Position numbers and translations under genes: made by a program | The notes under the pieces: model-generated | Database searches by the model: none | What the model was told of the DNA's origin: nothing | The model's input: the letters and a program-made list of their open reading frames with translations, nothing else | In this document: positions 4,985-30,496 of the stretch, piece after piece | Layout: the number at the start of each line of letters is the position of its first letter | Numbering within the stretch: the first letter of the stretch is position 1 | Assembly (NCBI RefSeq): GCF_000025505.1 | Contig: NC_013849.1 | Location: 480,001-512,000 of the forward strand | From: Ferroglobus placidus DSM 10642 | Lineage (GTDB): Archaea > Halobacteriota > Archaeoglobi > Archaeoglobales > Archaeoglobaceae | Direction of reading: 5' to 3' | DNA length: 32,000 nucleotides

Positions 4985-5010
4985 TTTTCCTGTCTGTAGA
5001 GGTGTGATTT

Positions 5011-5337: not shown

Positions 5338-5448
5338 TTCTGCCAGAAACGCAATGGTGACTGATTCTCAAGCTTGCTGAAAGGCTTTGATTTGCTACGT
5401 TTTGACTGAGGTAGATTATTTATTGTATTATTTTGAAGTATTAATGAG

Positions 5449-6681: not shown

Positions 6682-6720
6682 CCTTTTCCTGCCTTTAAGG
6701 GGGGATGGAGAGGTGGTTGA

Positions 6721-7701: not shown

Positions 7702-7752
7702 CCGTGAGAAGGATTGCCGCTTTTTCCACTTTTCTGAAGAAGAAGAGGTGGT

Positions 7753-8460
7753 ATGGTGAAGTGGAAAACCCATAAACTGATAACCAGAGCGGTTTGTGAG
7801 GCTTTAAGCATTCCGAACAGCGAGGAGGTTGTTGAATCTTCCGTTTTTCCAGATCAGCACAACGAGTTTTTCGTATCAAATGGGAAGCGTGTCAGAATTA
7901 AGCACCACAGCCCCTTCGCTTTAAAAGCGGCATGGAGGCACATTTTGAAGGCGAGAAAACTCCTGCTTCAGGGAAAGGACTGCTCTGAAGATCTGGGCAT
8001 GGCCCTTCATTACATTCAGGACTATTCTGTGAGCGTGACAAGGAGGTTTCTCTTCTTCAGGTGGAGGAGCGAGAAAGTTCACGATGAGAGGGAGGAGGAG
8101 CTGGCAGAGCTGCCTGTCCCGAGGGATGCGATCGAGGAGGGGATGAAAATAAGAGATCCCAACCAGCTAAAAAAGGCGCTTTTTTCCGAGAAACCGGAGG
8201 AGGAGCTGGAAAGGATAATGTACACAGCAACAACGCTGAGCGCTGCAGCGGTGGCCACAATTTTCTATCCTGTAGGAGATGGGAGTGGATGGAGAAGGGC
8301 TGTTGCACTGCACATCGCAGCGGTTGCATCACCTCTCCTGCTGGCTCTGATAGGTGGATGGCTGTGGCTACCGCTGGCAACTGTGCTGGGATATGCTGTG
8401 CATAAACTGGACTTCAAATACCACAGAGCGAAGCTGGAGAGAGACTGGTTCCGTCCCTGA
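7753..8460 (+). CDS. Membrane-anchored protein with zinc-dependent phospholipase C / P1-nuclease-like motifs
   Basis: The N-terminus MVKWKTHKLITRAV, then FPDQH, HHSP and LGMALHYIQDYSV follow the W..H / PD / H / HY.QD pattern of that superfamily, as I recall it. The C-terminus has 2-3 hydrophobic helices (AAAVATIFYPV.., VALHIAAVASPLLLALIGGWLWLPLATVLGYAV). Confidence 0.4.
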   Translation: MVKWKTHKLITRAVCEALSIPNSEEVVESSVFPDQHNEFFVSNGKRVRIKHHSPFALKAAWRHILKARKLLLQGKDCSEDLGMALHYIQDYSVSVTRRFLFFRWRSEKVHDEREEELAELPVPRDAIEEGMKIRDPNQLKKALFSEKPEEELERIMYTATTLSAAAVATIFYPVGDGSGWRRAVALHIAAVASPLLLALIGGWLWLPLATVLGYAVHKLDFKYHRAKLERDWFRP

Positions 8461-8490
8461 AGTTTTTTAATCTGGACAGGAGGAGAGAGT

Positions 8491-8976
8491 TTGGCTGTGC
8501 TGGTTTACCAGATTAGTGGTGATCTGCCAGAACCACCCAAAAGCTACATCGAGTCGTTTATGTCTCTTGTCCTCTCCTACCGCAGAAAAACTCCTCCTGA
8601 TGAGCTGACAAGGGAGCTCGCATACAGGATGCTCAGGCAGAGGATGGCTCTTCTGAAGGTTGTTGAGCGTGAAAACATCTACGTGGTGACTTTGCAGAGA
8701 AAAAGTGTGGTCGTGTTCGAAATCTACCCGCCAGAGCATAATCTCCTGCCAGAGCATGATAAAACAGATGAGGGAGAGGAGGCAGAGGAGGGAGCATGGA
8801 TAAAGAGGGAAGAGATGGGGAAAGAAGGTAGTAATGGAAGCGGAAATTCAAAAAGCCCAGTGAACGGAAAATTCAACGGCTGGAGATACAGAACAATCAG
8901 AAATCTGCAAGATGTGCCTGTTGAGGTGCTGAAAGAGGTGGTTGAGGAGCTGAGCAGATTGATCGAGCCAGAATGA
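8491..8976 (+). CDS. Hypothetical protein (161 aa)
   Basis: TTG start after GGAGGAGAGAG. It is the last gene of the + strand block. It has an acidic, Gly/Ser-rich middle. No family recognised. Confidence 0.45.
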   Translation: MAVLVYQISGDLPEPPKSYIESFMSLVLSYRRKTPPDELTRELAYRMLRQRMALLKVVERENIYVVTLQRKSVVVFEIYPPEHNLLPEHDKTDEGEEAEEGAWIKREEMGKEGSNGSGNSKSPVNGKFNGWRYRTIRNLQDVPVEVLKEVVEELSRLIEPE

Positions 8977-9090
8977 TTTGACGGTTTTTAACAGCGGTTT
9001 ATAACAACACCACCATTTTTATTTTTTTCTCTAAAAATATTTCAAATTTTTATAAATATTATGTGAAAGTTTTTTGTAAACAAAAAGAAA
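8977..9090. terminator. Convergent intergenic region with oligo-T tracts on both strands
   Basis: The + strand has ccatttttatttttttctc. The - strand has ttctttttgtttacaaaaaacttt. The stretch is AT-rich and lies between convergent gene blocks. Archaeal terminators are oligo-T runs. Confidence 0.45.
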
Positions 9091-10923: not shown

Positions 10924-11003
10924 AATATGCGCCCCGGAACTCTCCTCCCCACACCCTCACCAAACACCCTCACTCCCTCACATCACTCCCTCACCAACCC
11001 TCT

Positions 11004-12911: not shown

Positions 12912-12967
12912 GATATCACCCCTCTTTCCACATTTTCAGCCTCTCTTTTCCCATCCATGATCTCGCC

Positions 12968-12987
12968 CCATCCAGCGCCATCCAGCG
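12968..12987. repeat. Perfect 10-bp tandem duplication upstream of the platform gene
   Basis: ccatccagcg occurs twice in tandem, 57-76 nt upstream of ATG 12911. Confidence 0.9.
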
Positions 12988-13041
12988 CGTTCTGTCCCTG
13001 CCTGTTCCAGCCACTATTGCACATTCTCAACATCACCCAAA

Positions 13042-14250
13042 TCACCCCTCAATCACAAACGCCACCTCATACGTTGATCCGTCAGGCCGGGTAATGGATG
13101 CAACAACTGTATCCACACCGCCTGCACTCTTCGCAACCACTGAAGCTACTCCAAAATCGTTCGAGTTAACCTTAATAGATGTCCCCGTGTTTTTGCCGTC
13201 AGTAAGTGTTGTGGATGAGTTGAGGCTCGTGAAAGTAACTGTTACACCGGGAACGGGGTTGTTGAAAGTGTCTCTCACTTCAGCAGCGAGGGTTGCCGGA
13301 GTTGTTACAGCCCTTGCTGTGAGCCTGTAGAGGTAGTGATGCTCTGCCCTCTCATCCTCAAATCCCGCAGCCCCCAGTATAAGTTTGTAGGTTACACCTC
13401 TCATGAGCTCTATCACCACGTAGTCTCCCTGCATACTTACAGAGGACACGTAGCTCGAATCTGTGCTGTCAAAGTACTGCTTCCAGAAGTCCAGGGGGAG
13501 GGAGGTTTTTAGGAGGATCGTGATTGGTCTTCCACCTCCAGCATCAGTAACGGCAATCCCCTCCCCGTTACCACCGCTGTAGCAGTAGAGTGTTCCGCTT
13601 ACAGCAACACCGCTCTCGGAGAGGTTGCCCTCAAACATGGGGATGTAAACAGTCCTGCCATCAACAATATTTGTCCCACCAACATAGCTGTACTCCGTCT
13701 TCCCAACAGCAACAGCCCCATACTCCACCCTCGTCTCTCCAGGATCAAAGTAAACGTATGAAGGGATGAAGAGGAGGGACTTGCCGGTCAGAACGATCTC
13801 CCTCCCATTCCACACATCCTGTAAATCAGGATCCACAGCTACTGCATTGCGTATCCTTATCTCAGCTGAATATGTTGAGATTGCACCGGAGAAGGTGTTG
13901 GGTGTTGAGAAGAGGGGGATTGTGGGGTAGCTGCCTCCAAGCGTTAGGGAGTACGATCCGGTTTTGCCCTGAAGAGTAATCCTTTCAACATCACCTGTGA
14001 GGGCGATGAGATCCTTAACAGTCTCTGCAAACTGCCTTGTTTCATAGCTTGAGCAGATCTGCGGAACACCATATACCTGGTAGTAGGTGTACATGGCGGA
14101 GAGGAGCATAAGGACTAAGGCAAAGCCAACGAGTGGAGAAAGGGCTCTGCTGTCTGACAGCAGGTGGGGGTGGGAGTGAGGGGGAGTAGGACTTAGGGTA
14201 GATGTGGGTGTTGTAGTCAGGCTCGCCACCACAGCCACCACACTCACCAC
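13042..14250 (-). CDS. Archaeal prepilin-like secreted protein with C-terminal bacterial Ig-like (Big) domain
   Basis: SDSRALSPLVGFALVLMLLSAMY matches the archaeal pilin N-terminal consensus RAVSPVIG plus a hydrophobic helix. The C-terminus TLAAEVRDTFNNPVPGVTVTFTSLN..GVASVVAKSAGGVDTVVASI fits a Big_1-type fold pattern. GTG 14250 overlaps the ATPase stop by 7 nt. Confidence 0.7.
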   Translation of the reverse strand: MVSVVAVVASLTTTPTSTLSPTPPHSHPHLLSDSRALSPLVGFALVLMLLSAMYTYYQVYGVPQICSSYETRQFAETVKDLIALTGDVERITLQGKTGSYSLTLGGSYPTIPLFSTPNTFSGAISTYSAEIRIRNAVAVDPDLQDVWNGREIVLTGKSLLFIPSYVYFDPGETRVEYGAVAVGKTEYSYVGGTNIVDGRTVYIPMFEGNLSESGVAVSGTLYCYSGGNGEGIAVTDAGGGRPITILLKTSLPLDFWKQYFDSTDSSYVSSVSMQGDYVVIELMRGVTYKLILGAAGFEDERAEHHYLYRLTARAVTTPATLAAEVRDTFNNPVPGVTVTFTSLNSSTTLTDGKNTGTSIKVNSNDFGVASVVAKSAGGVDTVVASITRPDGSTYEVAFVIEG

Positions 14251-17200
14251 CTCTCCTCACCCAGCCCCTCCTGCCTCTCCTGCTCCTCTGACTCCTCCTG
14301 CCCTACCGATGGTACATCCTGCCCTTCTGATTCTGCCCTGTCCTCTGACAGATTATCTCCTTTTCCTCCCTCCCTCTTCCTTCCCTCGATCACACCCTCC
14401 TTCTTCATGTCTCTTATTTTTGTCTTTACAGCGCTGTAGCTCCTGTTGAGCGATTCTGCAATCTCCCGCAGAGGTTTCCCCTGTGTGTAAAGCTCGATCA
14501 GCTCCTGGATTTCCTCATCAGTCCATTTCCTTACACCACTTCCAGCTTCGCTCCTTTCGCTCTCTCCTTCTCTTCTCTCTCCCGCCTCTACTGCCTCTTC
14601 TGTCTCTGTAACCTCTACTGCCTCTTCCGTCTCGGCATCTACTGATCCTGCTCTTCCTGCTTCCTCTACCCCTCCCGTCTCTGCCTCTCCCTCACTTCCT
14701 GTTCCTGCAGCCTCATCCTCTACCCCACCTGCTCCTCCTACTCTATCTACTGCTTCCTGCTGAACAGCACTCACAACACCCTCTTCTTCCTCCATCAATT
14801 CTGACTCCACAGCTCGTAAAATCTCCATCCATTCCTCCTCCTTCTTTTTCTCTTCCTCTCTCTCTTCCTCCCTCATCCTGACTTCACCAATCTCTTCTCT
14901 CCCTACCTCCTCTGATACCTCCACGCCCTCCACTTTCCCTACTTCCTCCACCTTCTCTGACCCCTCTACCTCTTCCTCTTCCTCTGCCTCCCTTACCTCC
15001 TCTGCCTCACCTACATCCAATGTTTCTGCCACTCCTGCCGCTGTTCTCTCCACCTCTTTTACATCTCCCATCTCTCCCCCCTCCCCTACCACACCCTCAT
15101 CCACCTCCCTGCATGCTACTGCCTCGCTCTCGCCCTCCGCTACCCCTACCTCTCTCACCCATGCTGTATCCTCCTCTTTCACCTCTACCTCTCCCTCCGT
15201 CTCCGCCTCTGTCCCTACCTCCTCTGTCCCTACCTCCGACCCAATCTCTGCTTTCCCTACCACTACCTCTGTCCCTACCTCCCCTATCTCTGCTCCCTCA
15301 CCTACCTCTGCTGCCTCTACTCCCTCACCTACCACCTCACCTACCTCTACCCCCGTCCCTACCTCCTCTGTCCCTACCTCTGCTCCAACATCTGCTACCT
15401 CCACTTCCTCGCCTACCTCTGCCTCAGTTACTCTCGCTCCCTCTACCTCTGTCCCTACCACTTCTCCTTCCCGCACTTCCCCTTCTTTACCCTCCCATAC
15501 TTCTCCCTCCCCTGCCTCTTCCTGTCCCTCCTCTCTGTCTCCTTCCGCACCTACCATGCCCTCCAGGCCCTCCAGGTCATCCACACTCAGGCCCTGCAAA
15601 CTCTCCTCACTCCCCACACCCTCTGCAATTTCTGCACTTTCTGCACCAGCAAGCCCCTCTGCACCAGCAAGCTCTGCAGCCTCCACACTGAGCTCAGTTA
15701 TAGATTCAGCAGGCTCGGCAGATTCAGAAGTTGATTCAACTCCTGCCACACCCACAGATTCAGCTACACGCCCTAAATGGATCCTCTCAAAGAACCTTCT
15801 GTAATCTGCCCCCTCCTCCGCAAGCCTCCTGATCAGCCTTGTTCTCCTCTCCAGATCCTTCACAAGCTCCTCCCGTGATCTGCCCGTCCTCTCCGAGATG
15901 CGGTGAAGGATCCCTGAGAGATCGAGTTTCCTGTGCAAATCCCTCGGCCCGTCCCACCGGAAGAGAGGGGTGAGTTTTATGCCCTCCCCTGCCCTCACTC
16001 CCGCTATCTCTCCACCCTCTCCAGCTCCTTCCTCCTCTCCAACCAGCCATATTCCGCTGCACCTTCTGAACACCCTGTCCCCCCTCCTGAAGCTCCCTAC
16101 CACCACAACCAGATCTAAATTCAGAATCATAGCTCTCGGAACAGAGTAGGGAGGGCTCATCAGCCTGTTAATCACAGCCTCAGCACTGCTGCCGTGGACT
16201 GTGGAAAGGCACGTGTGGCCGAGGGCCATTGCCTGGAACATGATTTCAACCTCCTTCCCTCTCACCTCTCCAACTATGATGTACTCAGGCCTCTGTCTCA
16301 GAGCTGCCTTCAGCAGGGCGAACATGTCTATTCTGTCAGTTGCAACCGAGGGGATCCAGTTCTTGTGTGGCAGCAGAACTTCCCTTGTATCCTCTATGGA
16401 CACAACCTTGGAGTGGTATGGTATGAAGAGTGCTGTCGCGTTCATTGCAGTCGTTTTTCCTGCTGCTGTACCTCCAACAAACAGCATCGATCCATTCGAC
16501 TCAAGGCAGAGCCAGAGTAGGGCGAGCTCTTCAGCCGAAAAGGAGTTCCACCTCACAAGATCCACGGGGGTGACAGGAGTTTTCTTCACCTTCCTCACGG
16601 TGAATGTTGATCCGTGATCTGTAACCTCGCTCCTGAATGTCAGCTGAACTCTACTGCCATCATACAGGGTTGTGTCAGCAATTGGGTTTGCCATGCTGAT
16701 CTCAATACCCCTCCGCTGTGCAACAGCCAGAACGAAGTCGTCAAGCTCCTCATTGCTCATCACAATGTTTGTGGGGATGCTCTCGTACAGGCTGTGGTAA
16801 ACAAAGACGGGTTTGTTGTATCCGCTGCAGGATATGTCCTCAATAAACCGGTCCTTGAGGAGGGGGGTTATGCGGCCCGCATAGATACAGTCCCTCTCAA
16901 GGTAGTACCACATCTTTGCGATGGTTTCCAGTTCCAGCTTAAGCTCCTGTTCCGGCTCATGTTCACGTTTGCGTTTGTGTTCACGTTTAGTGGGTAATTC
17001 TGTGAGTATGACTTCCTTGAACGCCTCGAATAAAGTTTCCCTGTCGTCCTCCGAGGCGTGCAGGGGGACCCTTTCAAGCACCCTCTCCTTCAGATCCTGG
17101 AGGAACTCAACCTCCTTATTTGTGAGGTCGGGTTCAAGCAGGGCGTAGAAGTATCCCTTGCCATCTGTAAGGATTTGCGCTGCTGCAAAGGGCATCTCCA

Positions 17201-17330
17201 GCCAGTAGTGCTCAACCTCCCTGTATCCCTCCGGTATATCGGCGGACAGCTTTACATTTACACCTCTCAGATCCTCCATTGTAAAGTCAGGTACCTCTTT
17301 CTTTCGGCGGAAGGGAAGTGGAAATTTCAT
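14244..17330 (-). CDS. FlaI/PilB/VirB11-family secretion ATPase fused to an acidic low-complexity region and a C-terminal Myb/GcrA-like HTH
   Basis: aa 1-520 carry the family motifs: YALLEPDLTNKE (FlaI-type N-domain), Walker A GGTAAGKTT (aa 286-294), SIEDTREV (Asp box), EYIIVGEVRG (Walker B) and HTCLSTVHG (His box).
aa 523-932 are E/G/V/A-rich low complexity.
aa 934-980 read RKWTDEEIQELIELYTQGKPLREIAESLNRSYSAVKTKIRDMKKEG.
The ATG 17330 start appears leaderless, 20 nt downstream of AAAGTTATATAC. Confidence 0.9.
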   Translation of the reverse strand: MKFPLPFRRKKEVPDFTMEDLRGVNVKLSADIPEGYREVEHYWLEMPFAAAQILTDGKGYFYALLEPDLTNKEVEFLQDLKERVLERVPLHASEDDRETLFEAFKEVILTELPTKREHKRKREHEPEQELKLELETIAKMWYYLERDCIYAGRITPLLKDRFIEDISCSGYNKPVFVYHSLYESIPTNIVMSNEELDDFVLAVAQRRGIEISMANPIADTTLYDGSRVQLTFRSEVTDHGSTFTVRKVKKTPVTPVDLVRWNSFSAEELALLWLCLESNGSMLFVGGTAAGKTTAMNATALFIPYHSKVVSIEDTREVLLPHKNWIPSVATDRIDMFALLKAALRQRPEYIIVGEVRGKEVEIMFQAMALGHTCLSTVHGSSAEAVINRLMSPPYSVPRAMILNLDLVVVVGSFRRGDRVFRRCSGIWLVGEEEGAGEGGEIAGVRAGEGIKLTPLFRWDGPRDLHRKLDLSGILHRISERTGRSREELVKDLERRTRLIRRLAEEGADYRRFFERIHLGRVAESVGVAGVESTSESAEPAESITELSVEAAELAGAEGLAGAESAEIAEGVGSEESLQGLSVDDLEGLEGMVGAEGDREEGQEEAGEGEVWEGKEGEVREGEVVGTEVEGARVTEAEVGEEVEVADVGAEVGTEEVGTGVEVGEVVGEGVEAAEVGEGAEIGEVGTEVVVGKAEIGSEVGTEEVGTEAETEGEVEVKEEDTAWVREVGVAEGESEAVACREVDEGVVGEGGEMGDVKEVERTAAGVAETLDVGEAEEVREAEEEEEVEGSEKVEEVGKVEGVEVSEEVGREEIGEVRMREEEREEEKKKEEEWMEILRAVESELMEEEEGVVSAVQQEAVDRVGGAGGVEDEAAGTGSEGEAETGGVEEAGRAGSVDAETEEAVEVTETEEAVEAGERREGESERSEAGSGVRKWTDEEIQELIELYTQGKPLREIAESLNRSYSAVKTKIRDMKKEGVIEGRKREGGKGDNLSEDRAESEGQDVPSVGQEESEEQERQEGLGEERW
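14427..14531 (-). repeat. HTH-module copy 1 (one arm of a 105-nt inverted duplication)
   Basis: The reverse complement matches 17825-17929 at 89 of 105 nt in a codon-by-codon count. A perfect 32-nt core lies at 14440-14471. Confidence 0.85.
14535..15764 (-). repeat. Imperfect tandem/low-complexity coding repeats (acidic E/G/V/A region)
   Basis: The + strand is roughly 80 percent pyrimidine over about 1.2 kb by eye, with recurring cctctgtccctacctcc units (EVGTE-type peptide repeats on the - strand). It produces the spurious P/L-rich antisense ORF 15020..15691. Confidence 0.8.
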
Positions 17331-22914: not shown

Positions 22915-24777
22915 TCAGTAGCACATCCCACTAATTTTTGGTATAAGCTCCTCGAATGCTGCCACTATCTCAACTTCCTTCCTCGTTTTGAGGAGGTTGA
23001 CCATGTACTCCACAAAATCATTCACAACCTCAGGGTCCTTCACGGGGAACCTGTCCTTGTCCCTTTTCAGGTTCAGCATCCTGATCACCTCATCCCTTCC
23101 TTCCTTCAAAAGCGTGCACACTATCTCCTTCGAAAGCTTCTTTGAAAGTATGCCAGCCTCCATGAACTCCCTCAGCCTTGCAATGTCTCCTGCTTCAACG
23201 CTAATTTTCTCCACCTCAGCAGATTTCACAGCAGCCCTGATCTCAACTGCAAGCTCTTCTCCTGCAGACATAAGCTCGCCCACAACCTCTCCGTACCTCC
23301 TGAGTATCAGCATCTCTCCCTCTCTGACAAGCAACAGCGGTTCCGGATGTATGCTCAGCCCCATGAAGTCGACAAAGCCTGGCTTGAAGTCAATGATTGC
23401 CCTGCCCTCTCTTTCTCCATCCATGCCCGCTCTTCCTCCCCATCCAAGGTCAGCCTCTTCCCCTCTCTCAGGAATGGATTTCCTGACCTTTGGCAGTCTT
23501 GCAAGCAGGTTTCTGGCAGCCTCCTCCTCTCCGTGAACGATGTATATCCTCCTCGGATAGTAGTCCATCCCCTCAACAAAGCCAACCAGCCCATCCTCAT
23601 CTGCGTGGGCTGAGAATGCACTAACATTCACAACATTGCACCTCACATCCACCTCATCACCATTCACGTACACAAGCTTATTTCCATCAACTATCTGCCT
23701 GCCAAGTGTCCCCTCCGCCTGATAGCCAACAAACAGGACTGTTGAGTTCTCATCCTGCAATATGTAAGGCAGGTGGTTCAGGACTCTCCCTCCCTCAAGC
23801 ATTCCGGATGCTGAGAGGATTATGCACGGCTCATTACTCTTAGCCAGCTCCCTGCTCCTGTTGTATGTTGTTACATACTCAAGCCCCTCAAACTCTATCG
23901 GGTTTTTCCCCCTCAGGAACAGCTCGTAAAACTCTTTTCTGAGCATGTTGCTGTAGCTTTTGTAGATATCCGTTACTCTGCTGCCAAGCGGTGTGTCGAG
24001 ATAAACCTTTACCCTGATTTTGTCCCTGAGATTCCTCAGAACATACAGGACCTCCTGCGCCCTTCCAACGGCAAACACTGGAATCAATACTTTACCACCG
24101 GCCTTTATCGTGTCGCTTATCACAGCCTTCATGGTTTCCACAGCTTTTGCCCTGTCCTCATGCCTTCTGTTCCCGTATGTTGACTCCATTATCAGCACAT
24201 CCGCCTCTTTTGGTGGGGTGGGAGGGTTCATGAGTGGAGAGGTGCCTGAACCTATGTCTCCAGTATAGCAGATTTGCAACCCGTTGATTCTGAGCAGTGT
24301 GACTGCAGAGCCAAGGATGTGGCCCGCATCGAGGAAGCTGAGCTTCACATCCTGCAGCCTTACGGGTTTGTTGTAGGGATAGGCGTCGAAATGAGACATC
24401 ACCTCAACAACATCCCTCTCATCAAAAAGGGGCGGGATGTTGCTTTTTTCGTACTCCTCCTTCATAATTTTTGCAGAATCAAGCAAGAGCAGCTCGGCTA
24501 TCGCCCTTGTTGCGGTTGTTGTTACAACCCTCCCCCTGAACCCCCTGAGGTAGAGGTAGGGGATCAGCCCTGAGTGGTCGATGTGGGCGTGGCTGAGTAT
24601 AATGTAGTCAATCTCGGATGGATCGAATGGGATGTGTTTTTCCCGCTCCACAGAATCAACTCCCTGCCTCATTCCACAGTCCAGCAGGATCTTCGTTTTA
24701 CCCGTATCAAGCAGGTGCATCGATCCGGTGACTTCCCTGCATGCTCCCAGAAATCTGATTTTAACCACACTCACCAC
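22915..24777 (-). CDS. Metallo-beta-lactamase / beta-CASP nuclease (CPSF/RNase J superfamily) with an unrecognised 175-aa C-terminal extension
   Basis: Motifs: FLGACREVTGS, LLDCG, HAHIDHSG (HxHxDH), DAGHILGSA, YTGDIG, ESTYG, beta-CASP IPVFAVGRAQE, SAFSAHAD and IVHGE. The canonical fold ends near aa 445 (..IPERGEEADLG). aa 446-620 (nt 22918-23442) have no motif I recognise. The start is GTG 24777 or 24768, after AGAGGTGGTGA. Confidence 0.85.
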   Translation of the reverse strand: MVSVVKIRFLGACREVTGSMHLLDTGKTKILLDCGMRQGVDSVEREKHIPFDPSEIDYIILSHAHIDHSGLIPYLYLRGFRGRVVTTTATRAIAELLLLDSAKIMKEEYEKSNIPPLFDERDVVEVMSHFDAYPYNKPVRLQDVKLSFLDAGHILGSAVTLLRINGLQICYTGDIGSGTSPLMNPPTPPKEADVLIMESTYGNRRHEDRAKAVETMKAVISDTIKAGGKVLIPVFAVGRAQEVLYVLRNLRDKIRVKVYLDTPLGSRVTDIYKSYSNMLRKEFYELFLRGKNPIEFEGLEYVTTYNRSRELAKSNEPCIILSASGMLEGGRVLNHLPYILQDENSTVLFVGYQAEGTLGRQIVDGNKLVYVNGDEVDVRCNVVNVSAFSAHADEDGLVGFVEGMDYYPRRIYIVHGEEEAARNLLARLPKVRKSIPERGEEADLGWGGRAGMDGEREGRAIIDFKPGFVDFMGLSIHPEPLLLVREGEMLILRRYGEVVGELMSAGEELAVEIRAAVKSAEVEKISVEAGDIARLREFMEAGILSKKLSKEIVCTLLKEGRDEVIRMLNLKRDKDRFPVKDPEVVNDFVEYMVNLLKTRKEVEIVAAFEELIPKISGMCY

Positions 24778-24910
24778 CTCTTTACCTCATACTCCTCGCT
24801 ACCTATCCCCAATCTCATCTCTCAACCCAATATCTTCCCGGCATCTTTATGGCTTTGTGGGAGCCATATCCACATGCATCCAGAACATCCAGGCATACAT
24901 CCAGCATGGC

Positions 24911-24930
24911 TGAAAAGAACAAAAACAAAG
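24911..24930 (-). terminator. Oligo-T tract directly after the Cas5-like RAMP gene
   Basis: The minus strand reads CTTTGTTTTTGTTCTTTTCA immediately after the stop at 24931-24933. A 153-nt gap separates the RAMP gene from the beta-CASP start. Confidence 0.4.
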
Positions 24931-25923
24931 CTAAACAACCACAAACTCTCCCTTTCCAAAGCTTGTTTTAGCCCCTATACCCCTAAGCTCGGCGATGGCA
25001 AGGCATTCGTAGAAAATCTCCGGCGGTTTTTCTGCAAACTCAACCTGCACCTTTGCCCCGGCAGGAATTGCCATGTCCTTCATAATCCTGTTCTTTCCCC
25101 CGTTTGGTGTCACCTTTCTGTGGAGCGACAAAACCGTTCTGGGGGGCAGGCATTCCTTCTTAACCCCCACAAATGGATCCTCATAGCTTTCATAATCCGG
25201 GTGGAAGTGCCTTCCGGCATTCTTCACCCCCGTGAGGATAGTCTCTCCCGTAAGCTCCCCGATGAAGTCGGAGATGAAGTGAAGGGTTAGCCTGTCCTTT
25301 CTTTCCAGCTCTCTTTCCAGCTCTCTTGCCCTCCTCCTGATATCCTCCAGCCTTATCATCCTGTAGTTCAGCCTGTCAATCCTGAAGTGCCCCTTCCCCT
25401 TTCCGCTCCTCCTCCCCAGCTTCAGCCCGTTCTCCTCTATCAGCTCCATTACTGCAACAAATTCCTCAGCATAATCCTCCCCCCTCCTCATATTAAGTAC
25501 AGCCTTAAACCTGTAGCTGTATCCGCGCGTAACCGCTTCAAGTCTGAAGGCCGACGTTTTTCCGGTCTTTCTGTCAACCCTCGTCTGGATGATTGTGCCT
25601 TTTCTGGTAGGATGCTTTAAAACCTGGCCGCATGTGCTGCACTTAAAGTTCTGAAACTTCTCAGCCACAAAGGGTAGAAGGAGTCCTCCGTCAGCATGAA
25701 GGGGAATTGCATCCTTGAAGTAGATTAGCGCTGCATTCTCGTCCAAAAAGCTCTTGCTCAATCCAGCATTAACATGCAGGAGTTCATACCCAACACTCCC
25801 CCTTATGTGCTGTCCCTGCGGATAGGGGTGGGTGGTGGAAAGTCCGTGTTTCTTGAAACCAGTTCCAAGGTGGTACTCGGTGATGTTGGTGATCACACCC
25901 TCAGCCACAAGAGCCACCTTCAT
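24931..25923 (-). CDS. Two-domain RAMP protein, Cas5 group-like (Csm4/Cmr3/Csf3-like) with a Zn-knuckle insert
   Basis: 330 aa. Motifs: N-terminal ITEYHLGTG..YPQGQHIRGSVGYELL, FKDAIPL, the insert FKCSTCGQ, VDRKTGKTSAFRLEAVTRGYSYRF, a first G-rich loop LGRRSGKGKGHFRI, and a second, terminal G-rich loop GIGAKTSFGKGEFVVV. ATG 25923 follows GAGGAGAGAGGT. Confidence 0.65.
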   Translation of the reverse strand: MKVALVAEGVITNITEYHLGTGFKKHGLSTTHPYPQGQHIRGSVGYELLHVNAGLSKSFLDENAALIYFKDAIPLHADGGLLLPFVAEKFQNFKCSTCGQVLKHPTRKGTIIQTRVDRKTGKTSAFRLEAVTRGYSYRFKAVLNMRRGEDYAEEFVAVMELIEENGLKLGRRSGKGKGHFRIDRLNYRMIRLEDIRRRARELERELERKDRLTLHFISDFIGELTGETILTGVKNAGRHFHPDYESYEDPFVGVKKECLPPRTVLSLHRKVTPNGGKNRIMKDMAIPAGAKVQVEFAEKPPEIFYECLAIAELRGIGAKTSFGKGEFVVV

Positions 25924-25988: not shown

Positions 25989-26600
25989 CTACAGCTTTTC
26001 AAGGATGTTTCTGGCCTGCTTGAGGAAGTCCGTCCACTCCCTCTCCTGAATACTGAAATCTACCTTCACCCTTCCTCTTCCTCTCGTAACCCATCCCCCA
26101 ATTCCGAACTCCTCTATTGCCTTCAATCCAGCAACAATTAATTCCTTATCCCTCGGCTTCGGATCCACAACCCTTATTTTCCCCGTGAACACCGCTCCCT
26201 CCTCGATCTCCTCAATTTTGAGGGTGTTCGACACCACCCCATCCTCCCTGCTGATTCTGAGGTGCACTGATGGATGGACAATCTCCTTGTAAGATCTCTC
26301 AGAGACAAGGTCATCAATAATTGCTCTCCCCTTCTTCCCCAGAGATCCAAAGAGATCGCAGAGAACACATCTCCCGCATGGCTTTGCATCCTTCATCCCG
26401 GTATCACATACATTCTCGCCGTTCTCCCTCAGAATTCTCTCCAGATACCCCCTCAAAGCACCGTATATGGGGATTGCAACTCTCCCGTCCCCTGTTATTC
26501 TTGCAAGCTTTATATCTGCCTTCCTGTCCATTTTAATTTCTCCTGTCACTGCTGGCAAGGTTGTTGTGGCCTTTATATCGAACACCAGATACTTATTCAC
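25989..26600 (-). CDS. RAMP protein, Cas7 group-like (Csm3/Cmr4/Csf2-like)
   Basis: ORF-track 25989..26621, trimmed to GTG 26600, 3 nt after GGGGGTGAT. Signature order: YLVFDIKATTTLPAVTG, IPIYGALRGYLE (compare IPGSSxKGxxR), CGRCVLCDLFGS (compare CxxCxLFG), TLKIEEIEEGAVFTGKIRV, and GIGGWVTRGRGRVKV (G-rich loop). Confidence 0.75.
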   Translation of the reverse strand: MNKYLVFDIKATTTLPAVTGEIKMDRKADIKLARITGDGRVAIPIYGALRGYLERILRENGENVCDTGMKDAKPCGRCVLCDLFGSLGKKGRAIIDDLVSERSYKEIVHPSVHLRISREDGVVSNTLKIEEIEEGAVFTGKIRVVDPKPRDKELIVAGLKAIEEFGIGGWVTRGRGRVKVDFSIQEREWTDFLKQARNILEKL

Positions 26601-26637
26601 ACCATCACCCCCTACTCTCAAAAATACTCCTCACCAT

Positions 26638-26647
26638 TATTTAAATA
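26638..26647 (-). promoter_or_regulatory. TATA box of the RAMP gene pair
   Basis: TATTTAAATA is centred about 43 nt upstream of GTG 26600. That is consistent with a short SD-containing leader. It lies between the last degenerate repeat and the Cas7-like gene. Confidence 0.5.
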
Positions 26648-26680
26648 GTTTGCGTATATGTGTATAGTATCCTAAAGTCT

Positions 26681-26921
26681 TTGGATTCACTCTCCTTTGC
26701 AGCGTTATAGTGGTGAGCGAACCCGTCGATACGTTAGAATGTGGATTCATATCATCGTCTTCATCCTCTTTTGCAACCTCAGTGATGGTAGGAAGCTTCC
26801 AGAAAGCACAATTCTGTGGACTCGTATCATTGTCCTATCTCCCTTTGCAATTCTTGTGTATGAAGCAGCATACGACATCATAGAGTGGATTCGTATCATC
26901 ATCCTCATCTCCCTCTGCAAC
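26681..26921 (-). CRISPR. Degenerate mini-array: 4 repeats (~37 nt) and 3 spacers (33/38/37 nt)
   Basis: + strand units:
- R3 26885-26921 gtggattcgtatcatcatcctcatctccctctgcaac
- R2 26816-26851 gtggactcgtatcattgtcctatctccctttgcaat
- R1 26741-26777 gtggattcatatcatcgtcttcatcctcttttgcaac
- R0 26681-26703 ttggattcactctcctttgcagc (internal ~14-nt deletion)
The period is 69-75 bp. Decay increases away from the TATA-bearing AT-rich side at 26922-27024, so the array is probably transcribed on the - strand, like the RAMP genes. Confidence 0.5.
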
Positions 26922-26986
26922 CCCTACCATATATCTCTGTTTCTGTTTAAATACCTATATCCTTTCTCCTTCATAGCCAGAAGTGT

Positions 26987-27024
26987 GAAGTCCTCAAAAT
27001 GGGTTTAAGTATTTAAAGGACTTC
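26987..27024 (-). promoter_or_regulatory. 38-bp palindrome-flanked TATA element, copy B (putative leader promoter/operator of the mini-array)
   Basis: The minus strand reads GAAGTCCT-ttaaatacttaaacccattttg-AGGACTTC. The first repeat (R3) starts 65 nt downstream. A second TATA-like TATTTAAAC lies at about 26946-26954. Confidence 0.5.
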
Positions 27025-27135
27025 AAATCGAATCTGAGCAATTATGAGGTTTCTCTCAAGCAATCCGCCGGACATGGTTGCATATTACAATTTATTTATA
27101 CCTGAGGCCCGCCTGAAACAGATTTAACCTATCGC

Positions 27136-27635: not shown

Positions 27636-30167
27636 CTACATACCTCCGAACTCATCAAACTCCTCTGGAGACACATCCTCTTCGTAAGCCATACCAAGAC
27701 CTGCTCCTCCCAGACCAGCTCCCGGACCGGAACCAAAGCCAGAGCCAGATCCGGGGCCGAAAGAGGGGCGGAACCTAGCTCCTCTGCCACCACCTCTCAC
27801 CCAGCTCCACCCCCTCATTGCAGCCCTGTAATCGAGCGTGTGGGCCTCGGGGTCGTAGGTGTAGGGGGAGATGTGGGTGAGGTGCCTGTGGTAGCTCTCC
27901 ATCCTGTCCCTTATGTACTCCCTCAGCTTTGCCTGGGCAACCTTCTGCTGTGCGAGATACATCTGCGCTCTCCTTATCTTCTCCGCCTCCTCAGCAGGAA
28001 TTGAGGTTCTCACCAGCCCTCCGGCGGAGATGAAGTCTGCCATCCTCCTCGCAGCATCCGCCTCCCTCGCAGCTCCCTCTCCCCTTGCTGGAGTTTCCAG
28101 AGAGTCCGCCACTATTCTGTCTCCCAGAGTTGCAATTGCTCTCCCCCTCGCATTCACAAGGTGCTCCGCCAGATCGCTTGCCGCCTGCACGTTCCCGCTG
28201 TTTACCTCCTCAAAAACCTCTCTCACCCTTGCCTCCGAAAGTCCTGTTGCCTCAGCATAAACCCTGATAGCATCATCAAACCTGTATGCGGGTGTTTCAG
28301 ATATGTCCTGGACTAATGCCTGAGCAACAGCATCAGTGTTTGATCCTGAAACAAGCTCTCTGAAGGTGTTGTTGTAGGGCTCTATCTGCGCATACACGTC
28401 CCTCAGACTTTCAGCCACATTCCATGCTGCATCATAGTCTCCTGCCACAGCCCCCGCAAGATCCCTCTCACTAACTCCCTGGGCTTTGAGGAACGCCCTG
28501 GCGAAGTCGCTTTTCATCACATACTGCCCGAGCTCGGGATGCTCCTGGAAAAGCCTCTGCACTTTCTCAGCATTCTCCGCAGCATCCTGGCCGGTTGCAG
28601 CAGCAAGAAGCGATGCAAGGCCGAGCACCCCAGGATCTTTCATCTTCTTTGCAAACTCGAAGTTGTCCTGGAGCATTCTGTGGTAGGCCTGCTCAACACT
28701 GCGAAACTCCCTGCCAGCCCCCCTGCCGTACACGGCTGAGACCGCATTTCTCAAATCCTGCAGTCTCTTCACACCCTCCTCACTCCTTCCCCCCAGGCTT
28801 GCAGCATCAGCAGCAAGCCTGCCGATGCCCAGGGAGATATCTTCGAGCGCATTGGCGGCGTGGGGATTTGTTGCATCCACATCCCCTGTTTTGGCGAGGG
28901 AGTGGAGCATGCCGAGAGATGCTGTCGGCACTCCAGCTTTAGCAAGCGCCCCGGCACCGCTCAAAAGTGTCTCATCCCTTTTGAGTTCAGGGGCAAATCT
29001 CTGAACTGCCCTCGCAGCTCTGCCAATGACCGGCGCTCTTGCTGCAAGCCCCGTCACACTCTCACCCAGTCTGTGAAGAGGTACGGCAAGTTTTGAGGGC
29101 ATTGCTGCATACAGCGGGGCGAGCTTCCCACCCATCGCAATGGCTGATGCTCCCTTAACTCCTGCAAACGCCTTGATACCGGGTCTGCCGTAGAATATGA
29201 GCGATCTTATAAGCCCTGCACTTGCAGCACCAAAACCACCCATCATTGATGAGACTATTGTGGGAAAGGCAAATACGAGGAACAAAGGCCCGAGGATTAT
29301 GAACACTCCCATCAGCCCCGCCTGGTTAATCATGTCTGTGTTTGCGAACTTCACCATGAATCCAACTATGAGTGCCCCGAGAACGGAGAGAGTGGGGAGT
29401 ATTATGCCAAGCCCCCAGAAATACTCCACGAACTCTCCGAGCTTTCTCAGTGGTCCAACACCTATGACCAGGAAGAAGCAGAATATGGGCATTGCCGCAG
29501 CAACGAGGTATATTAACACGAGCCTCACAGCCACTATGGCGAGAGCTGACAGGATGAAGAGGAGAAGGAATGGAGCCAGAACCTCTCCGAGCGTTAGGAC
29601 GAGGGCACCGGTTGTAACAGCTGCCGTAAATGTACCGGTAAGAACGTTTGCCAGATTCTGTATGTCGGCAGAGCCTACAAACAGTGTCAGGATCTCATCT
29701 GAAATCTGATTTGTCAGCCAGACGAGTGTGTCCACAATCGGAAAGCTGAAGTATGCCAGCAGAGTTGCGTATGCAACCCTCTTTATGTATCCCTCGAACA
29801 GCATCCTGTTCGGTGGTTCGGATGAAAACATCACGTAAATGCCAAGCAGCACGAGGCTGATGGGGAGGAGCTGTGTTAGGTAGATGTCAAAGCAGGTCTT
29901 CCAGGCATCCTTTACTTCCTCAAGCCTGGCCGGACGGGGGACGTAGGCGAGCCAGCTCGAAAGTGTCTTCACAAGCCCTCCCACAATATACTGCAGAGCA
30001 CCATAGAGCCCCTGGTAAAAAAGCTGGATGGCCCAGTTAATACCACCCGCTATGAAGTCCACGATCGGATTGCCTCCCCCTGTGTTGTTTCCTTCCTGCG
30101 CCGCAACTGGCAGTATAACCGCTGTGAGTATCGCAATCAGCAGTATGGCCTTTACTACCTTCATCAT
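27636..30167 (-). CDS. Large polytopic membrane protein (843 aa) with signal peptide, ~8-10 TM helices and a long Ala-rich helical C-terminal domain; TrbL/VirB6-like topology (inference)
   Basis: MMKVVKAILLIAILTAVILPVAAQEG is the signal. Dense hydrophobic helices run to about aa 330. A soluble domain of about 500 aa then ends in Gly-rich GGGRGARFRPSFGPGSGSGFGSGPGAGLGGAGLG and the acidic tail EEDVSPEEFDEFGGM. The start looks leaderless (TATA-like ATAATATAA about 15-20 nt upstream). Confidence 0.75.
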   Translation of the reverse strand: MMKVVKAILLIAILTAVILPVAAQEGNNTGGGNPIVDFIAGGINWAIQLFYQGLYGALQYIVGGLVKTLSSWLAYVPRPARLEEVKDAWKTCFDIYLTQLLPISLVLLGIYVMFSSEPPNRMLFEGYIKRVAYATLLAYFSFPIVDTLVWLTNQISDEILTLFVGSADIQNLANVLTGTFTAAVTTGALVLTLGEVLAPFLLLFILSALAIVAVRLVLIYLVAAAMPIFCFFLVIGVGPLRKLGEFVEYFWGLGIILPTLSVLGALIVGFMVKFANTDMINQAGLMGVFIILGPLFLVFAFPTIVSSMMGGFGAASAGLIRSLIFYGRPGIKAFAGVKGASAIAMGGKLAPLYAAMPSKLAVPLHRLGESVTGLAARAPVIGRAARAVQRFAPELKRDETLLSGAGALAKAGVPTASLGMLHSLAKTGDVDATNPHAANALEDISLGIGRLAADAASLGGRSEEGVKRLQDLRNAVSAVYGRGAGREFRSVEQAYHRMLQDNFEFAKKMKDPGVLGLASLLAAATGQDAAENAEKVQRLFQEHPELGQYVMKSDFARAFLKAQGVSERDLAGAVAGDYDAAWNVAESLRDVYAQIEPYNNTFRELVSGSNTDAVAQALVQDISETPAYRFDDAIRVYAEATGLSEARVREVFEEVNSGNVQAASDLAEHLVNARGRAIATLGDRIVADSLETPARGEGAAREADAARRMADFISAGGLVRTSIPAEEAEKIRRAQMYLAQQKVAQAKLREYIRDRMESYHRHLTHISPYTYDPEAHTLDYRAAMRGWSWVRGGGRGARFRPSFGPGSGSGFGSGPGAGLGGAGLGMAYEEDVSPEEFDEFGGM

Positions 30168-30326
30168 ATTACACTATAGGTTATATTATGATAAAGCTTT
30201 CTGTTGTTGCTTGATTGGTGGTTAGAGGAGAATATGGGAAGAAGTGTCATGGCATAGATAAACAGTTAAAAACTGTGGTTTTACTTATAGTGTAAGAAAA
30301 AAGAGTGTTTTGAAATGCAAATTATC

Positions 30327-30400
30327 TGGACCGGTGGGGATTTGAACCCCAGGCCTCCGCCATGCCAAGGCGGCGCTCTTCCAGGCTGAGCTACCGGCCC
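30327..30400 (-). tRNA. tRNA-Ala (anticodon GGC), no encoded CCA
   Basis: The reverse complement is GGGCCGGTAGCTCAGCCTGGAAGAGCGCCGCCTTGGCATGGCGGAGGCCTGGGGTTCAAATCCCCACCGGTCCA. It folds as a 74-nt cloverleaf: 7-bp acceptor stem with G3:U70 (the Ala identity pair), D arm GCTC/GAGC, anticodon stem CCGCC/GGCGG, loop TTGGCAT, and T arm TGGGG-TTCAAAT-CCCCA. Confidence 0.95.
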
Positions 30401-30496
30401 AAGTGATTGTAATTTATCTAACTCCATGAGCTTATAAGGTTTATGGACAAGAGAAAAACATATTTTTCAAAGCAATAACCCTTTCACTGTTGCCCT

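What the first reader, a model, noticed from the sequence alone, without database searches (positions are those of the whole stretch)
26681..26921. Mini-array with strongly diverged repeats and polar decay
Seen in sequence:
- Four direct repeats lie on a 69-75 bp period (coordinates and sequences are in the feature list). Three unrelated spacers measure 33, 38 and 37 nt.
- R1 and R3 differ at 7 of 37 positions. R2 has a 1-nt deletion. R0 lacks about 14 internal nt.
- Divergence grows away from the AT-rich, TATA-bearing side at 26922-27024. That is the pattern expected for a leader-distal degenerate terminal repeat.
- On the inferred transcribed (-) strand the repeat starts GTTGCA, like many archaeal repeats. 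It ends GAATCCAC rather than with an ATTGAAAG-type handle, and it has no internal palindrome.

Interpretation: normal arrays keep their repeats almost identical. About 80 percent identity suggests either a fossil array or fixed, non-adapting guides. Those would resemble the atypical repeats that encode dedicated homing or regulatory guides in some mobile-element CRISPR systems, or virus-borne mini-arrays used in inter-element conflict.
Basis: seen in the sequence. Interest (0 to 1): 0.7.

Follow-up and report, generated by a model that had tools for sequence, protein, structure and literature searches.

The report
Type VII CRISPR mini-array of Ferroglobus
This is the short CRISPR array, with drifted repeats, beside the rare type VII (Cas14) RNA-cutting system of the archaeon Ferroglobus placidus. 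Diverged repeats are a published hallmark of that system, so the finding is real but largely already explained.

Summary
The four repeats and three spacers are real. The 15-nt repeat core occurs three times in the window, against none expected by chance.

The window is Ferroglobus placidus DSM 10642. The array lies directly upstream of, and on the same (-) strand as, cas7 (Ferp_0589), cas5 (Ferp_0588) and cas14. NCBIfam scores the cas14 product at 1032 bits as "type VII Cas14". The literature names F. placidus as the only complete genome with a type VII system. It also says that type VII loci lack adaptation genes and have repeats with multiple substitutions.

Related type VII loci carry homologous arrays on the cas strand, and their repeats are just as polymorphic (mean pairwise identity 0.66-0.89).

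It follows from the CRISPR type, not from a homing-guide or viral mini-array mechanism. "Fossil" is less likely. The cas genes are intact and under purifying selection, and R3 and R2 keep a 4-bp stem through a compensatory change.

One addition seems new. In loci without cas6, the 3' half of the repeat is a covarying 4-bp stem closing a conserved loop nAUGAUAnGA.

No protospacers were found.

The parts
26885..26921 (-). Repeat R3 (leader-proximal, 37 nt): GTTGCAGAGGGAGATGAGGATGATGATACGAATCCAC. Its 3' module is the stem GGAU/AUCC closing the loop GAUGAUACGA, followed by AC.
26852..26884 (-). Spacer S3 (33 nt): TCTATGATGTCGTATGCTGCTTCATACACAAGA
   Evidence: No protospacer was found.
26816..26851 (-). 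Repeat R2 (36 nt): ATTGCAAAGGGAGATAGGACAATGATACGAGTCCAC. The stem is GGAC/GUCC, a compensatory change relative to R3.
26778..26815 (-). Spacer S2 (38 nt): AGAATTGTGCTTTCTGGAAGCTTCCTACCATCACTGAG
26741..26777 (-). Repeat R1 (37 nt): GTTGCAAAAGAGGATGAAGACGATGATATGAATCCAC. The loop is conserved, but the stem AGAC/AUCC forms only 2 of 4 pairs.
26704..26740 (-). Spacer S1 (37 nt): ATTCTAACGTATCGACGGGTTCGCTCACCACTATAAC
26681..26703 (-). Truncated terminal repeat R0: GCTGCAAAGGAGAG|TGAATCCAA. It keeps the 5' 14 nt and the 3' 8-9 nt. The 5' strand of the stem and most of the loop are deleted.
   Evidence: by direct reading against R1
26922..27135 (-). Putative leader between the stop of Ferp_0590 (DUF5658) and R3. 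A TATA-like box, TATTTAAA, lies at 26946-26953, 24 nt upstream of R3. An inverted repeat spans 26986-27025.
   Evidence: The promoter is inferred from the sequence only, because the sigma-70 scan does not apply to archaea.
26601..26680 (-). Gap between the array and cas7, holding a separate TATA-like box (TATTTAAA, 26640-26647) and a GGTGAT ribosome-binding-like site. The ATTTAAATAA element is conserved in the relative L012.
25989..26600 (-). cas7 (Ferp_0589; 203 aa from GTG at 26600; GenBank aa from 26621)
   Evidence: Pfam RAMPs 6.5e-12. PDB type VII Cas7 (8YHD and others) E = 1.7e-46. Named.
24931..25923 (-). cas5 (Ferp_0588; 330 or 325 aa)
   Evidence: PDB type VII Cas5 E = 2.4e-11. Pfam RAMPs. 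Named.
22915..24777 (-). cas14, the beta-CASP effector nuclease. The HxHxDH zinc motif is present as HAHIDH at residue 63.
   Evidence: NCBIfam NF045584 at 1031.8 bits against a cut-off of 800, covering the full length. PDB Cas14 8YHD E = 2.5e-92. Motif.

Best explanation

**Proposed mechanism**
1. The array is transcribed on the - strand from the AT-rich leader at 26922-27135, towards cas7-cas5-cas14.
2. The transcript is cut into three crRNAs. Each carries repeat-derived tags on both sides of its spacer.
3. Each crRNA is bound by one Cas5 and a filament of catalytically inactive Cas7.
4. When the spacer pairs with a complementary RNA, tetrameric Cas14 is recruited and its beta-CASP domain cleaves that RNA.

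**Why the repeats diverge.** The system has no Cas1/Cas2, so the array is not renewed and no new repeat copies are made. Each repeat therefore drifts on its own, and only the positions the machinery needs stay fixed. Those are the 5' GYTGCA and a 3' module made of a 4-bp stem, the loop nAUGAUAnGA and a terminal AC. The last repeat sits at the leader-distal end with no spacer after it, and it has lost that module.

**Status of each step.** Shown here: the repeats, the identity of the cas genes, homology of the array to other type VII arrays, and the covarying stem. Taken from the literature: the Cas5/Cas7/Cas14 mechanism. Inferred: the promoter, the processing site, who processes the transcript in the absence of cas6, and whether the array is active today.
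For: **Organism and genes**
- Exact protein look-ups name F. placidus DSM 10642 and Ferp_0586 to Ferp_0591.
- Cas14 scores 1031.8 bits against NCBIfam NF045584, cut-off 800.
- Cas7, Cas5 and Cas14 match the solved type VII complex with E = 1.7e-46, 2.4e-11 and 2.5e-92.
- The Cas14 zinc motif HAHIDH is intact.

**Literature**
[quoted passage not shown] - Cas7/Cas5 hold a crRNA with 5' and 3' repeat tags, and Cas14 cleaves RNA (PMC10910872).
- The F. placidus accession WP_012965105, next in number after HtpX (WP_012965104) and so probably Cas14, is in that paper's beta-CASP table.

**Homologous arrays**
- L003, L004, L007, L016, L017 and L021 carry arrays on the cas strand that share the core ATGATAnGA. 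L014 also has an array on the cas strand, but with a variant core (TATATAAGAG). In L003, L004 and L007 the array lies directly upstream of cas7.
- Mean pairwise repeat identity within those arrays is 0.66-0.89. The window scores 0.68.
- L005 has a comparable 3-repeat mini-array with an internally deleted repeat.

**Structure and selection**
- The stem pairs in 89% of cells, against 67% in shuffles and 14-38% in slid controls. All 4 pairs show changes on both sides, and 0 of 500 shuffles reach the observed score.
- cas7 and cas5 compared with L012 give pN 0.06 and 0.11 while pS is saturated at about 0.75.

**The + strand ORF is not a gene**
- It has 0 homologues among 1.84 billion representative proteins.
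- The exact sequence is held by no source in the collection.
Against: - No expression data could be consulted, so transcription and processing are unproven.
- No protospacer was found in the window or fetched loci, in phage or plasmid records (only chance hits with E >= 0.2) or in IMG/VR. The rest of the F. placidus genome could not be searched.
- The locus has no cas6, so the processing enzyme is unknown.
- R1 has a weakened stem and R0 lacks the module, so at most one or two crRNAs may mature normally.
- Other Archaeoglobales carry decayed type VII loci, so decay does happen in this lineage.
- The 4-bp stem is not thermodynamically significant on its own (z from -1.0 to +0.2). It would need protein support at the roughly 85 C at which I recall this organism growing.
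Confidence: 0.88

Rival explanations
1. Fossil array. The units are a decaying remnant of a once longer type VII array. They are no longer transcribed or processed into usable crRNAs, and the cas genes are kept for another reason or are only recently orphaned.
For: - Only three spacers remain. R0 is truncated and the R1 stem is half-broken.
- No targets were found.
- Related Archaeoglobales loci are visibly decaying: L002 has a truncated cas7, and L010/L011 have a split cas5 and only a cas14 fragment.
- In Pyrococcus abyssi, a short array with degenerate repeats was found to be silent (PMC3124441).
Against: - cas7, cas5 and cas14 are full length, and the Cas14 catalytic motif is intact.
- cas7 and cas5 are under strong purifying selection.
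- R3 and R2 keep the conserved loop exactly and keep the stem through a compensatory double change.
- TATA-like boxes precede both the array and cas7.
- Equally divergent repeats occur in 10-19-repeat arrays of intact type VII loci. Divergence alone therefore does not indicate a dead array.
Confidence: 0.22
2. Dedicated guides of a mobile element. The three spacers are fixed homing or regulatory guides, as with the atypical repeats of CRISPR-associated transposons, or a virus- or plasmid-borne mini-array used against competing elements.
For: - The neighbourhood has a mobile-element flavour. A tRNA-Ala gene flanks a TrbL/VirB6-like membrane protein. A PilB-like ATPase, a T2SSF protein and many ORFs without family matches lie in the window.
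- Published type VII spacers mostly match transposon genes (PMC10910872).
Against: - No transposase, integrase or viral hallmark gene turned up among 29 scanned ORFs.
- No att-like duplicate of the tRNA region exists in the window.
- The spacers have no target in the window.
- The repeat core gives only single chance matches in 2.9 million viral contigs.
- Repeat divergence is a general trait of type VII arrays in varied, non-mobile-looking genomic settings.
Confidence: 0.06
3. Protein-coding repeat. The + strand ORF 26697-27008 (103 aa, TTG start) encodes a small hydrophobic protein with an internal repeat. The 75- and 69-nt periods keep the reading frame.
For: - The ORF is open across R1-R3, and both periods are multiples of 3.
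- A gene caller called the equivalent partial ORF on the Logan contig L009.
Against: - It has no homologue among 1.84 billion representative proteins and no Pfam or NCBIfam match.
- The exact sequence is held by no source, and the single locus tag between Ferp_0589 and Ferp_0591 belongs to the DUF5658 gene.
- Homologous repeats in other loci have periods of 64-70 nt that do not preserve a frame.
Confidence: 0.01
4. Iterons. The units are DNA-binding sites for a replication, partition or regulatory protein.
For: They are direct repeats on a regular period in an intergenic region next to an AT-rich stretch.
Against: - No replication or partition gene is adjacent.
- The sequences between the units are unique and 33-38 nt long, as spacers are.
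- The units are homologous to repeats of CRISPR arrays that accompany the same cas genes elsewhere.
- Covariation points to a constraint at the RNA level.
Confidence: 0.01

Closest known systems
Type VII CRISPR-Cas (Cas14 beta-CASP effector with Cas7 and Cas5; Altae-Tran et al. 2023, PMC10910872; Makarova et al. 2025, PMC12669027; structures 8YHD, 8Z4J and others)
   Same: - It has the same three effector genes in one operon, with a CRISPR array on the same strand.
- The locus has no adaptation genes.
- Repeats within the array carry substitutions and indels.
- This very organism is the one the literature cites as the complete-genome example.
   Different: - The studied system (Ga0116245_10002768) has cas6 and a 29-nt hairpin repeat, GTTTAAGTYCCATATNNTGGGGTTAAAAC, with more than 30 spacers.
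- F. placidus has no cas6 in the locus.
- Its repeat is 37 nt with a purine-rich GAT-rich insert.
- Its stem-loop ends only 2 nt before the spacer.
- It has just three spacers.
Arrays of type VII loci without cas6, in ANME-1/Methanophagales, Methanosarcinales and Guaymas-type metagenome-assembled genomes (L003, L004, L005, L007, L016, L017, L021)
   Same: - The repeats start GTTG or GTTT and end AC or ATG.
- The 3' module is shared: a 4-bp stem closing the loop nAUGAUAnGA.
- The apex nucleotide is hypervariable.
- The array lies on the cas strand, directly upstream of cas7 in L003, L004, L005 and L007.
   Different: - Their repeats are 27-30 nt and lack the insert.
- Most of these arrays have 9-19 repeats. 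L005 has three, like F. placidus.
Type III-D and other type III systems
   Same: - They use RAMP Cas7 and Cas5 backbones and an RNA-targeting crRNP.
- They often rely on a Cas6 encoded elsewhere.
- Their crRNAs carry an 8-nt 5' handle taken from the repeat 3' end.
   Different: - The window has no Cas10.
- The cutting nuclease is Cas14, not Cas7.
- The handle would be GA(A/G)UCCAC rather than AUUGAAAG/C.
Atypical repeats and guides of Tn7-like CRISPR-associated transposons, and virus-borne mini-arrays
   Same: Both are short arrays with divergent repeats in systems that do not acquire spacers.
   Different: - The window has no transposition or viral genes.
- No self or homing target was found.
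- The divergence here is a type-wide trait, not one special repeat that privatises a guide.
K-turn / K-loop RNA motifs bound by archaeal L7Ae (box C/D and C'/D' motifs); definition from my own knowledge
   Same: Reading 5' to 3', the module gives:
- a canonical stem ending in a C-G pair;
- a 3-nt bulge (n-A-U);
- G-A;
- a short cap;
- G-A directly abutting the stem's 3' strand.

The invariant or nearly invariant columns in 49 distinct repeats (G8, A9, G13, A14, C4-G15) are exactly the tandem sheared G.A positions and the -1 pair. Rfam gives only weak C/D-box hits at R3.
   Different: - There is no non-canonical helix beyond the two putative G.A pairs, only a 3-nt cap (U-A-n).
- There is no CUGA D box.
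- The Rfam scores are at chance level (E = 3-8).
- No binding or structural data exist.

Membership tests
Type VII CRISPR-Cas locus | Signature effector Cas14: a beta-CASP metallo-beta-lactamase nuclease with a C-terminal adaptor domain | tested here: met
   - NCBIfam NF045584 scores 1031.8 bits (cut-off 800) and aligns residues 5-614 to profile positions 1-612 of 612.
- PDB Cas14 8YHD matches at E = 2.5e-92.
- The HAHIDH motif is present.
Type VII CRISPR-Cas locus | Cas7 and Cas5 of the type VII kind, encoded in the same operon as Cas14 | tested here: met
   - Cas7 matches PDB type VII Cas7 at E = 1.7e-46, and Cas5 matches type VII Cas5 at E = 2.4e-11.
- The gene order cas7-cas5-cas14 lies on one strand.
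Type VII CRISPR-Cas locus | No adaptation module (cas1, cas2, cas4) in the locus | tested here: met
   None of the 29 ORFs scanned with Pfam (9 of them also with NCBIfam) is Cas1, Cas2 or Cas4. ORFs under about 90 aa were not all scanned. The genome outside the window was not examined.
Type VII CRISPR-Cas locus | Cas7 catalytic residues inactivated, with Cas14 cleaving the target RNA | not tested
   The catalytic-loop residues were not aligned. RNA cleavage cannot be tested with these tools.
CRISPR array | At least 3 direct repeats of 23-50 nt, separated by unique spacers of similar length | tested here: met
   There are 3 full repeats and 1 truncated repeat of 36-37 nt. The spacers are 33, 38 and 37 nt and are unrelated.
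CRISPR array | Repeats nearly identical within the array | tested here: not met
   - Identity is 81-84% gapped and 0.68 ungapped.
- This departure is itself typical of type VII arrays, which score 0.66-0.89 in relatives (PMC12669027).
CRISPR array | Adjacent to cas genes, with repeats homologous to those of arrays beside orthologous cas genes | tested here: met
   - The array ends 80 nt upstream of cas7.
- The shared core ATGATAnGA and the covarying stem occur in six other loci.
CRISPR array | Transcribed from a leader and processed into crRNAs | not testable with these tools
   Only a TATA-like box 24 nt upstream of R3 supports this.
Transposon-encoded CRISPR guide (CAST-type atypical repeat) | Linked to transposition genes, with a spacer matching the element's attachment site | tested here: not met
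   The window has no tns or tni genes and no transposase. The spacers find no match in the window above shuffled controls.
Virus-borne mini-array | Located on a viral genome, with repeats shared with a host array | tested here: not met
   The sequence is chromosomal F. placidus. The repeat core gives 54 single, scattered matches in IMG/VR and no array.
K-turn / K-loop | A canonical stem, a 3-nt bulge, and tandem sheared G.A pairs next to the stem | tested here: inconclusive
   The sequence pattern and conservation fit. Non-Watson-Crick pairs cannot be verified from sequence.
K-turn / K-loop | A non-canonical helix or a longer loop beyond the G.A pairs, and L7Ae binding | not testable with these tools
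   Only a 3-nt cap (U-A-n) follows the putative G.A pairs. No binding data exist.

The most novel reading that the evidence does not exclude
In type VII loci that lack cas6, including F. placidus, the classical Cas6 hairpin of the repeat has been replaced. The replacement is a small structured module placed against the spacer: a 4-bp stem closing the loop nAUGAUAnGA.

Its invariant nucleotides match those of a K-turn or K-loop. The module would be the signal for Cas6-independent crRNA maturation or loading. It might act through L7Ae, or be read directly by Cas5 or Cas14.

Because no new repeats are ever copied, each repeat evolves on its own under this structural constraint. That would explain the compensatory changes seen within single arrays.
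Probability: 0.2. Interest if true: 0.6.

Novelty: already known. Interest (0 to 1): 0.3.

Why it matters
As a finding it mostly confirms the literature. F. placidus is the published complete-genome example of type VII CRISPR-Cas, and drifting repeats are a stated hallmark of that type.

Three things still have some value.
1. F. placidus is, from my own knowledge, a cultured organism, so the question "are such worn mini-arrays still used?" can be answered with a small-RNA experiment.
2. The comparison splits type VII arrays into two repeat classes that track the presence or absence of cas6. It also pinpoints a covarying stem-loop as the candidate processing or loading signal in the class without cas6. 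I found no description of this in the papers I could read.
3. Frozen arrays act as a natural mutagenesis screen that shows which repeat positions the machinery needs.

Tried and rejected
- **Protospacer searches all came back empty.**
  - Best ungapped matches in the window and 21 fetched loci were no better than shuffled spacers.
  - blastn of the whole array against the plasmid and phage collections gave only chance hits to unrelated bacteria, E >= 0.2.
  - IMG/VR was scanned with each spacer masked at every sixth base, and nothing matched.
- **Repeat core in IMG/VR.** There were 54 single matches and no array.
- **Rfam on the region.** It gave only sub-threshold C/D-box snoRNA hits, 14-15 bits against gathering scores of 37-80.
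- **Thermodynamic folding.** The single repeats and the whole precursor fold no better than shuffles.
- **+ strand ORF.** It has no homologues.
- **Integrated-element idea.** I looked for a duplicate of the tRNA-Ala region as an att site and found none of 12 nt or more.
- **A longer Cas5 replacing Cas6.** I rejected this because loci that do have cas6 (L077, L079) also have Cas5 proteins of 321-327 aa.
- **Metagenome scan.** A metagenome-wide scan for more Cas7 loci returned only three.
- **K-loop paper.** The paper that defines the K-loop (PMC1289080) is not held. The K-turn criteria therefore rest on my own knowledge.
- **Promoter scan.** The sigma-70 promoter scan does not apply to an archaeon.

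Full report
**1. The observation**

I read them on the - strand:

| Unit | Coordinates | Length |
|---|---|---|
| R3 | 26885-26921 | 37 nt |
| R2 | 26816-26851 | 36 nt |
| R1 | 26741-26777 | 37 nt |
| R0 | 26681-26703 | truncated |

- The spacers between them are 33, 38 and 37 nt and are unrelated to each other.
- R2 differs from R3 by five substitutions and one deletion. R1 differs from R3 by seven substitutions.
- R0 keeps the first 14 nt and the last 8-9 nt.
- The 15-nt core ATGATAYGARTCCAC occurs three times in the window and nowhere else. No dinucleotide shuffle gave any match.
- Adjacent units reach 25/37 ungapped identity, against a maximum of 24 in 300 shuffles.

**2. What lies next to it**

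Three genes lie immediately downstream on the same strand.

- **cas7**, 25989-26600 (203 aa). It has a Pfam RAMPs match and matches the Cas7 of the solved type VII complex at E = 1.7e-46.
- **cas5**, 24931-25923 (330 aa). It matches type VII Cas5 at E = 2.4e-11.
- **cas14**, 22915-24777 (620 aa).
  - It scores 1031.8 bits against NCBIfam NF045584, "type VII CRISPR-associated protein Cas14", cut-off 800, over its full length.
  - It matches PDB Cas14 at E = 2.5e-92.
  - It keeps the HxHxDH zinc motif.

None of the 29 larger ORFs scanned in the window is Cas1, Cas2, Cas4 or Cas6.

**3. The organism**

Exact-sequence look-ups identify the window as the Ferroglobus placidus DSM 10642 chromosome, covering Ferp_0586 (HtpX) to Ferp_0591.

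- Makarova et al. [quoted passage not shown] - The F. placidus accession WP_012965105 is listed in the beta-CASP table of the paper that discovered the type (PMC10910872). It is the next number after HtpX (WP_012965104), so it is probably Cas14.

The locus and the general phenomenon are therefore already published.

**4. Comparison with relatives**

I collected type VII loci through Cas7 homologues.

- Arrays lie on the same strand as the cas genes. They are directly upstream of cas7 in L003, L004, L005 and L007, and downstream of cas14 in L014, L016, L017 and L021.
- Their repeats are polymorphic too. Mean pairwise identity within an array is 0.66-0.89, and the window scores 0.68. The closest relatives that have an array (L016 and L017, Cas7 68% identical) score 0.66-0.67.
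- Even the experimentally studied array, with DR GTTTAAGTYCCATATNNTGGGGTTAAAAC, varies from copy to copy and includes a 1-nt deletion.
- L005 has a three-repeat mini-array whose middle repeat carries an internal deletion.
- A Logan contig from another sample (L009; Cas7 98.5% and Cas14 99.8% identical) carries exactly the same array.

**5. A conserved module inside the drifting repeats**

All arrays from loci without cas6 share the same last 20 nt of the repeat: four bases, then nAUGAUAnGA, then the complement of the four bases, then AC or AT.

The stem sequence differs between arrays and within them:

| Stem | Where it occurs |
|---|---|
| GGAU/AUCC | window R3 |
| GGAC/GUCC | window R2 and L016 |
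| CAAC/GUUG | ANME-1-type loci |
| GAAC/GUUC, GCUC/GAGC | within the single array of L016 |
| UACC/GGUA, UGCC/GGCA | within the array of L021 |
| CUAC/GUAG | L001 |

Across 49 distinct repeats:
- 89% of cells pair, against 67% in shuffles and 14-38% when the partner is slid.
- All four pairs show changes on both sides.
- No shuffle out of 500 reaches the observed covariation score.

The loop nucleotide just 5' of the last 8 nt (n12) is hypervariable in every array.

In the window the module is intact in R3 and R2, half-paired in R1 and deleted in R0. That is a decay gradient away from the leader, although four units cannot carry statistics.

**6. Two repeat classes**

- Loci that encode a Cas6 have classical hairpin repeats ending GCAAAAC or GTTAAAAC. 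These are L077-L080, whose Cas6 has the AF_1859_N and PF10040 domains, and the experimental system.
- Loci with the nAUGAUAnGA-loop class have no Cas6 homologue within the available flanks. That includes the 32-kb window.
- Cas5 length does not track this split.
- How the precursor is cut in the class without cas6 is open. F. placidus is reported to have six CRISPR arrays and other cas modules (PMC3236036, PMC3973734), so a Cas6 acting in trans is possible.

The invariant positions of the module are C4-G15, G8, A9, G13 and A14. In a K-turn or K-loop, these are the positions that form the -1 pair and the tandem sheared G.A pairs, preceded by a 3-nt bulge n-A-U. This comparison rests on my own knowledge. 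It is echoed only weakly by sub-threshold C/D-box hits in Rfam, so I treat it as a lead.

**7. Functional or fossil?**

For function:
- The three cas genes are intact.
- Against the relative L012, cas7 and cas5 show pN of 0.06 and 0.11 with synonymous sites saturated.
- R3 and R2 keep the stem by a compensatory change.
- TATA-like boxes (TATTTAAA) lie 24 nt upstream of R3 and again upstream of cas7.

Against function:
- The array has only three spacers.
- R1 is weakened and R0 is truncated.
- No targets were found.
- Sister Archaeoglobales loci are in decay.

I put the identity "type VII CRISPR array" at about 0.95 and present-day activity at about 0.65.

**8. Rivals**

- **The + strand ORF 26697-27008.** The 75- and 69-nt periods keep it open. 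It has no homologue among 1.84 billion representative proteins, and the exact sequence is held by no source. Homologous repeats elsewhere have periods that break a frame.
- **Iterons.** Unique spacers, adjacency to cas genes and RNA-level covariation all argue against them.
- **Homing guides or viral mini-arrays.** No supporting gene or target was found.

**9. Verdict**

The finding is real and correctly recognised as CRISPR-like, but it is the known array of a known, though rare, system. Its odd look is the documented norm for type VII. Novelty is therefore low. The two repeat classes and the covarying K-turn-like module are a modest new lead that can be tested in a cultured organism.

Noticed in passing
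window 27636-30401: A tRNA-Ala(GGC) gene (30326-30401, - strand) lies about 160 nt upstream of Ferp_0591, an 843-aa multi-pass membrane protein that UniRef names TrbL/VirB6-like. This looks like the edge of an integrated element, but the window holds no att-like duplicate of the tRNA region of 12 nt or more.
   Followed up: partly
window 2257-17330: A cluster resembling type IV pilus or DNA-transfer machinery.
- A PilB/T2SSE ATPase is fused to a C-terminal HTH (14244-17330, 1028 aa). It carries a long tract of tandem repeats, C/T-rich on the + strand (about 14.9-15.4 kb).
- There is a T2SSF protein (11004-12911).
- There is an archaeal pilin with a lamin-tail domain (2257-3318).
- Many ORFs have no family match.
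- The type VII locus L021 also has a T2SSE gene beside its array.
   Followed up: partly
L012 1795-1840; window 24870-24915: In the closest relative with data (Cas7 89% identical), the cas5-cas14 intergenic region holds two solo copies of the repeat's 3' module, GGGCGATGATAGAAGTC and GGGCGATGATATGAGTCAAC, 24 nt apart and with no spacer-sized gap. F. placidus has short CTGGATGY tandem repeats in the same place instead.
   Followed up: no
L002 5997-6330; L010 8001-9676; L011: Other Archaeoglobales carry decayed type VII loci. L002 has a cas7 cut off after residue 113, next to a PCNA-like gene. L010 and L011 have an intact cas7 followed by a cas5 split into two ORFs and only a 95-aa C-terminal cas14 fragment. 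No array is visible in any of them.
   Followed up: partly
all arrays of loci without cas6; window 26749, 26824, 26893: The nucleotide at the loop apex, 9 nt before the spacer (GAUA-n-GA), takes all four bases within single arrays, while its neighbours are invariant. Hairpin-class repeats likewise vary mainly in the middle of the loop.
   Followed up: partly
L009 position 1 = window 26920: The Logan contig that carries the identical locus ends exactly at the second base of R3. The assembly broke at the leader-repeat junction, so the leader, or the number of repeats, may differ in that sample.
   Followed up: no
L001 3822-3850 and L013 8042-8070: A single orphan repeat, GTTTCACCCTACAATGATATGAGTAGAC, lies 66 nt downstream of cas14. 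Its stem is CUAC/GUAG. The covariance model detected no second copy.
   Followed up: no
window 25989-26621: GenBank calls cas7 as 210 aa from a TTG at 26621. RefSeq and all homologues use the GTG at 26600 (203 aa). cas5 likewise has 330-aa and 325-aa versions. The exact 620-aa Cas14 ORF is not in the collection, so its annotated start differs.
   Followed up: partly
window 3794-4426: A 210-aa protein has an RNase H-like (RVT_3) domain and a weak C-terminal SWIM zinc-finger match. It sits among ORFs of unknown function.
   Followed up: no
L016 6866-7321; L017 and L018 equivalents: The Guaymas-type type VII loci have an extra gene of 151-166 aa between cas5 and cas14. It has no Pfam match and is absent from F. 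placidus.
   Followed up: no
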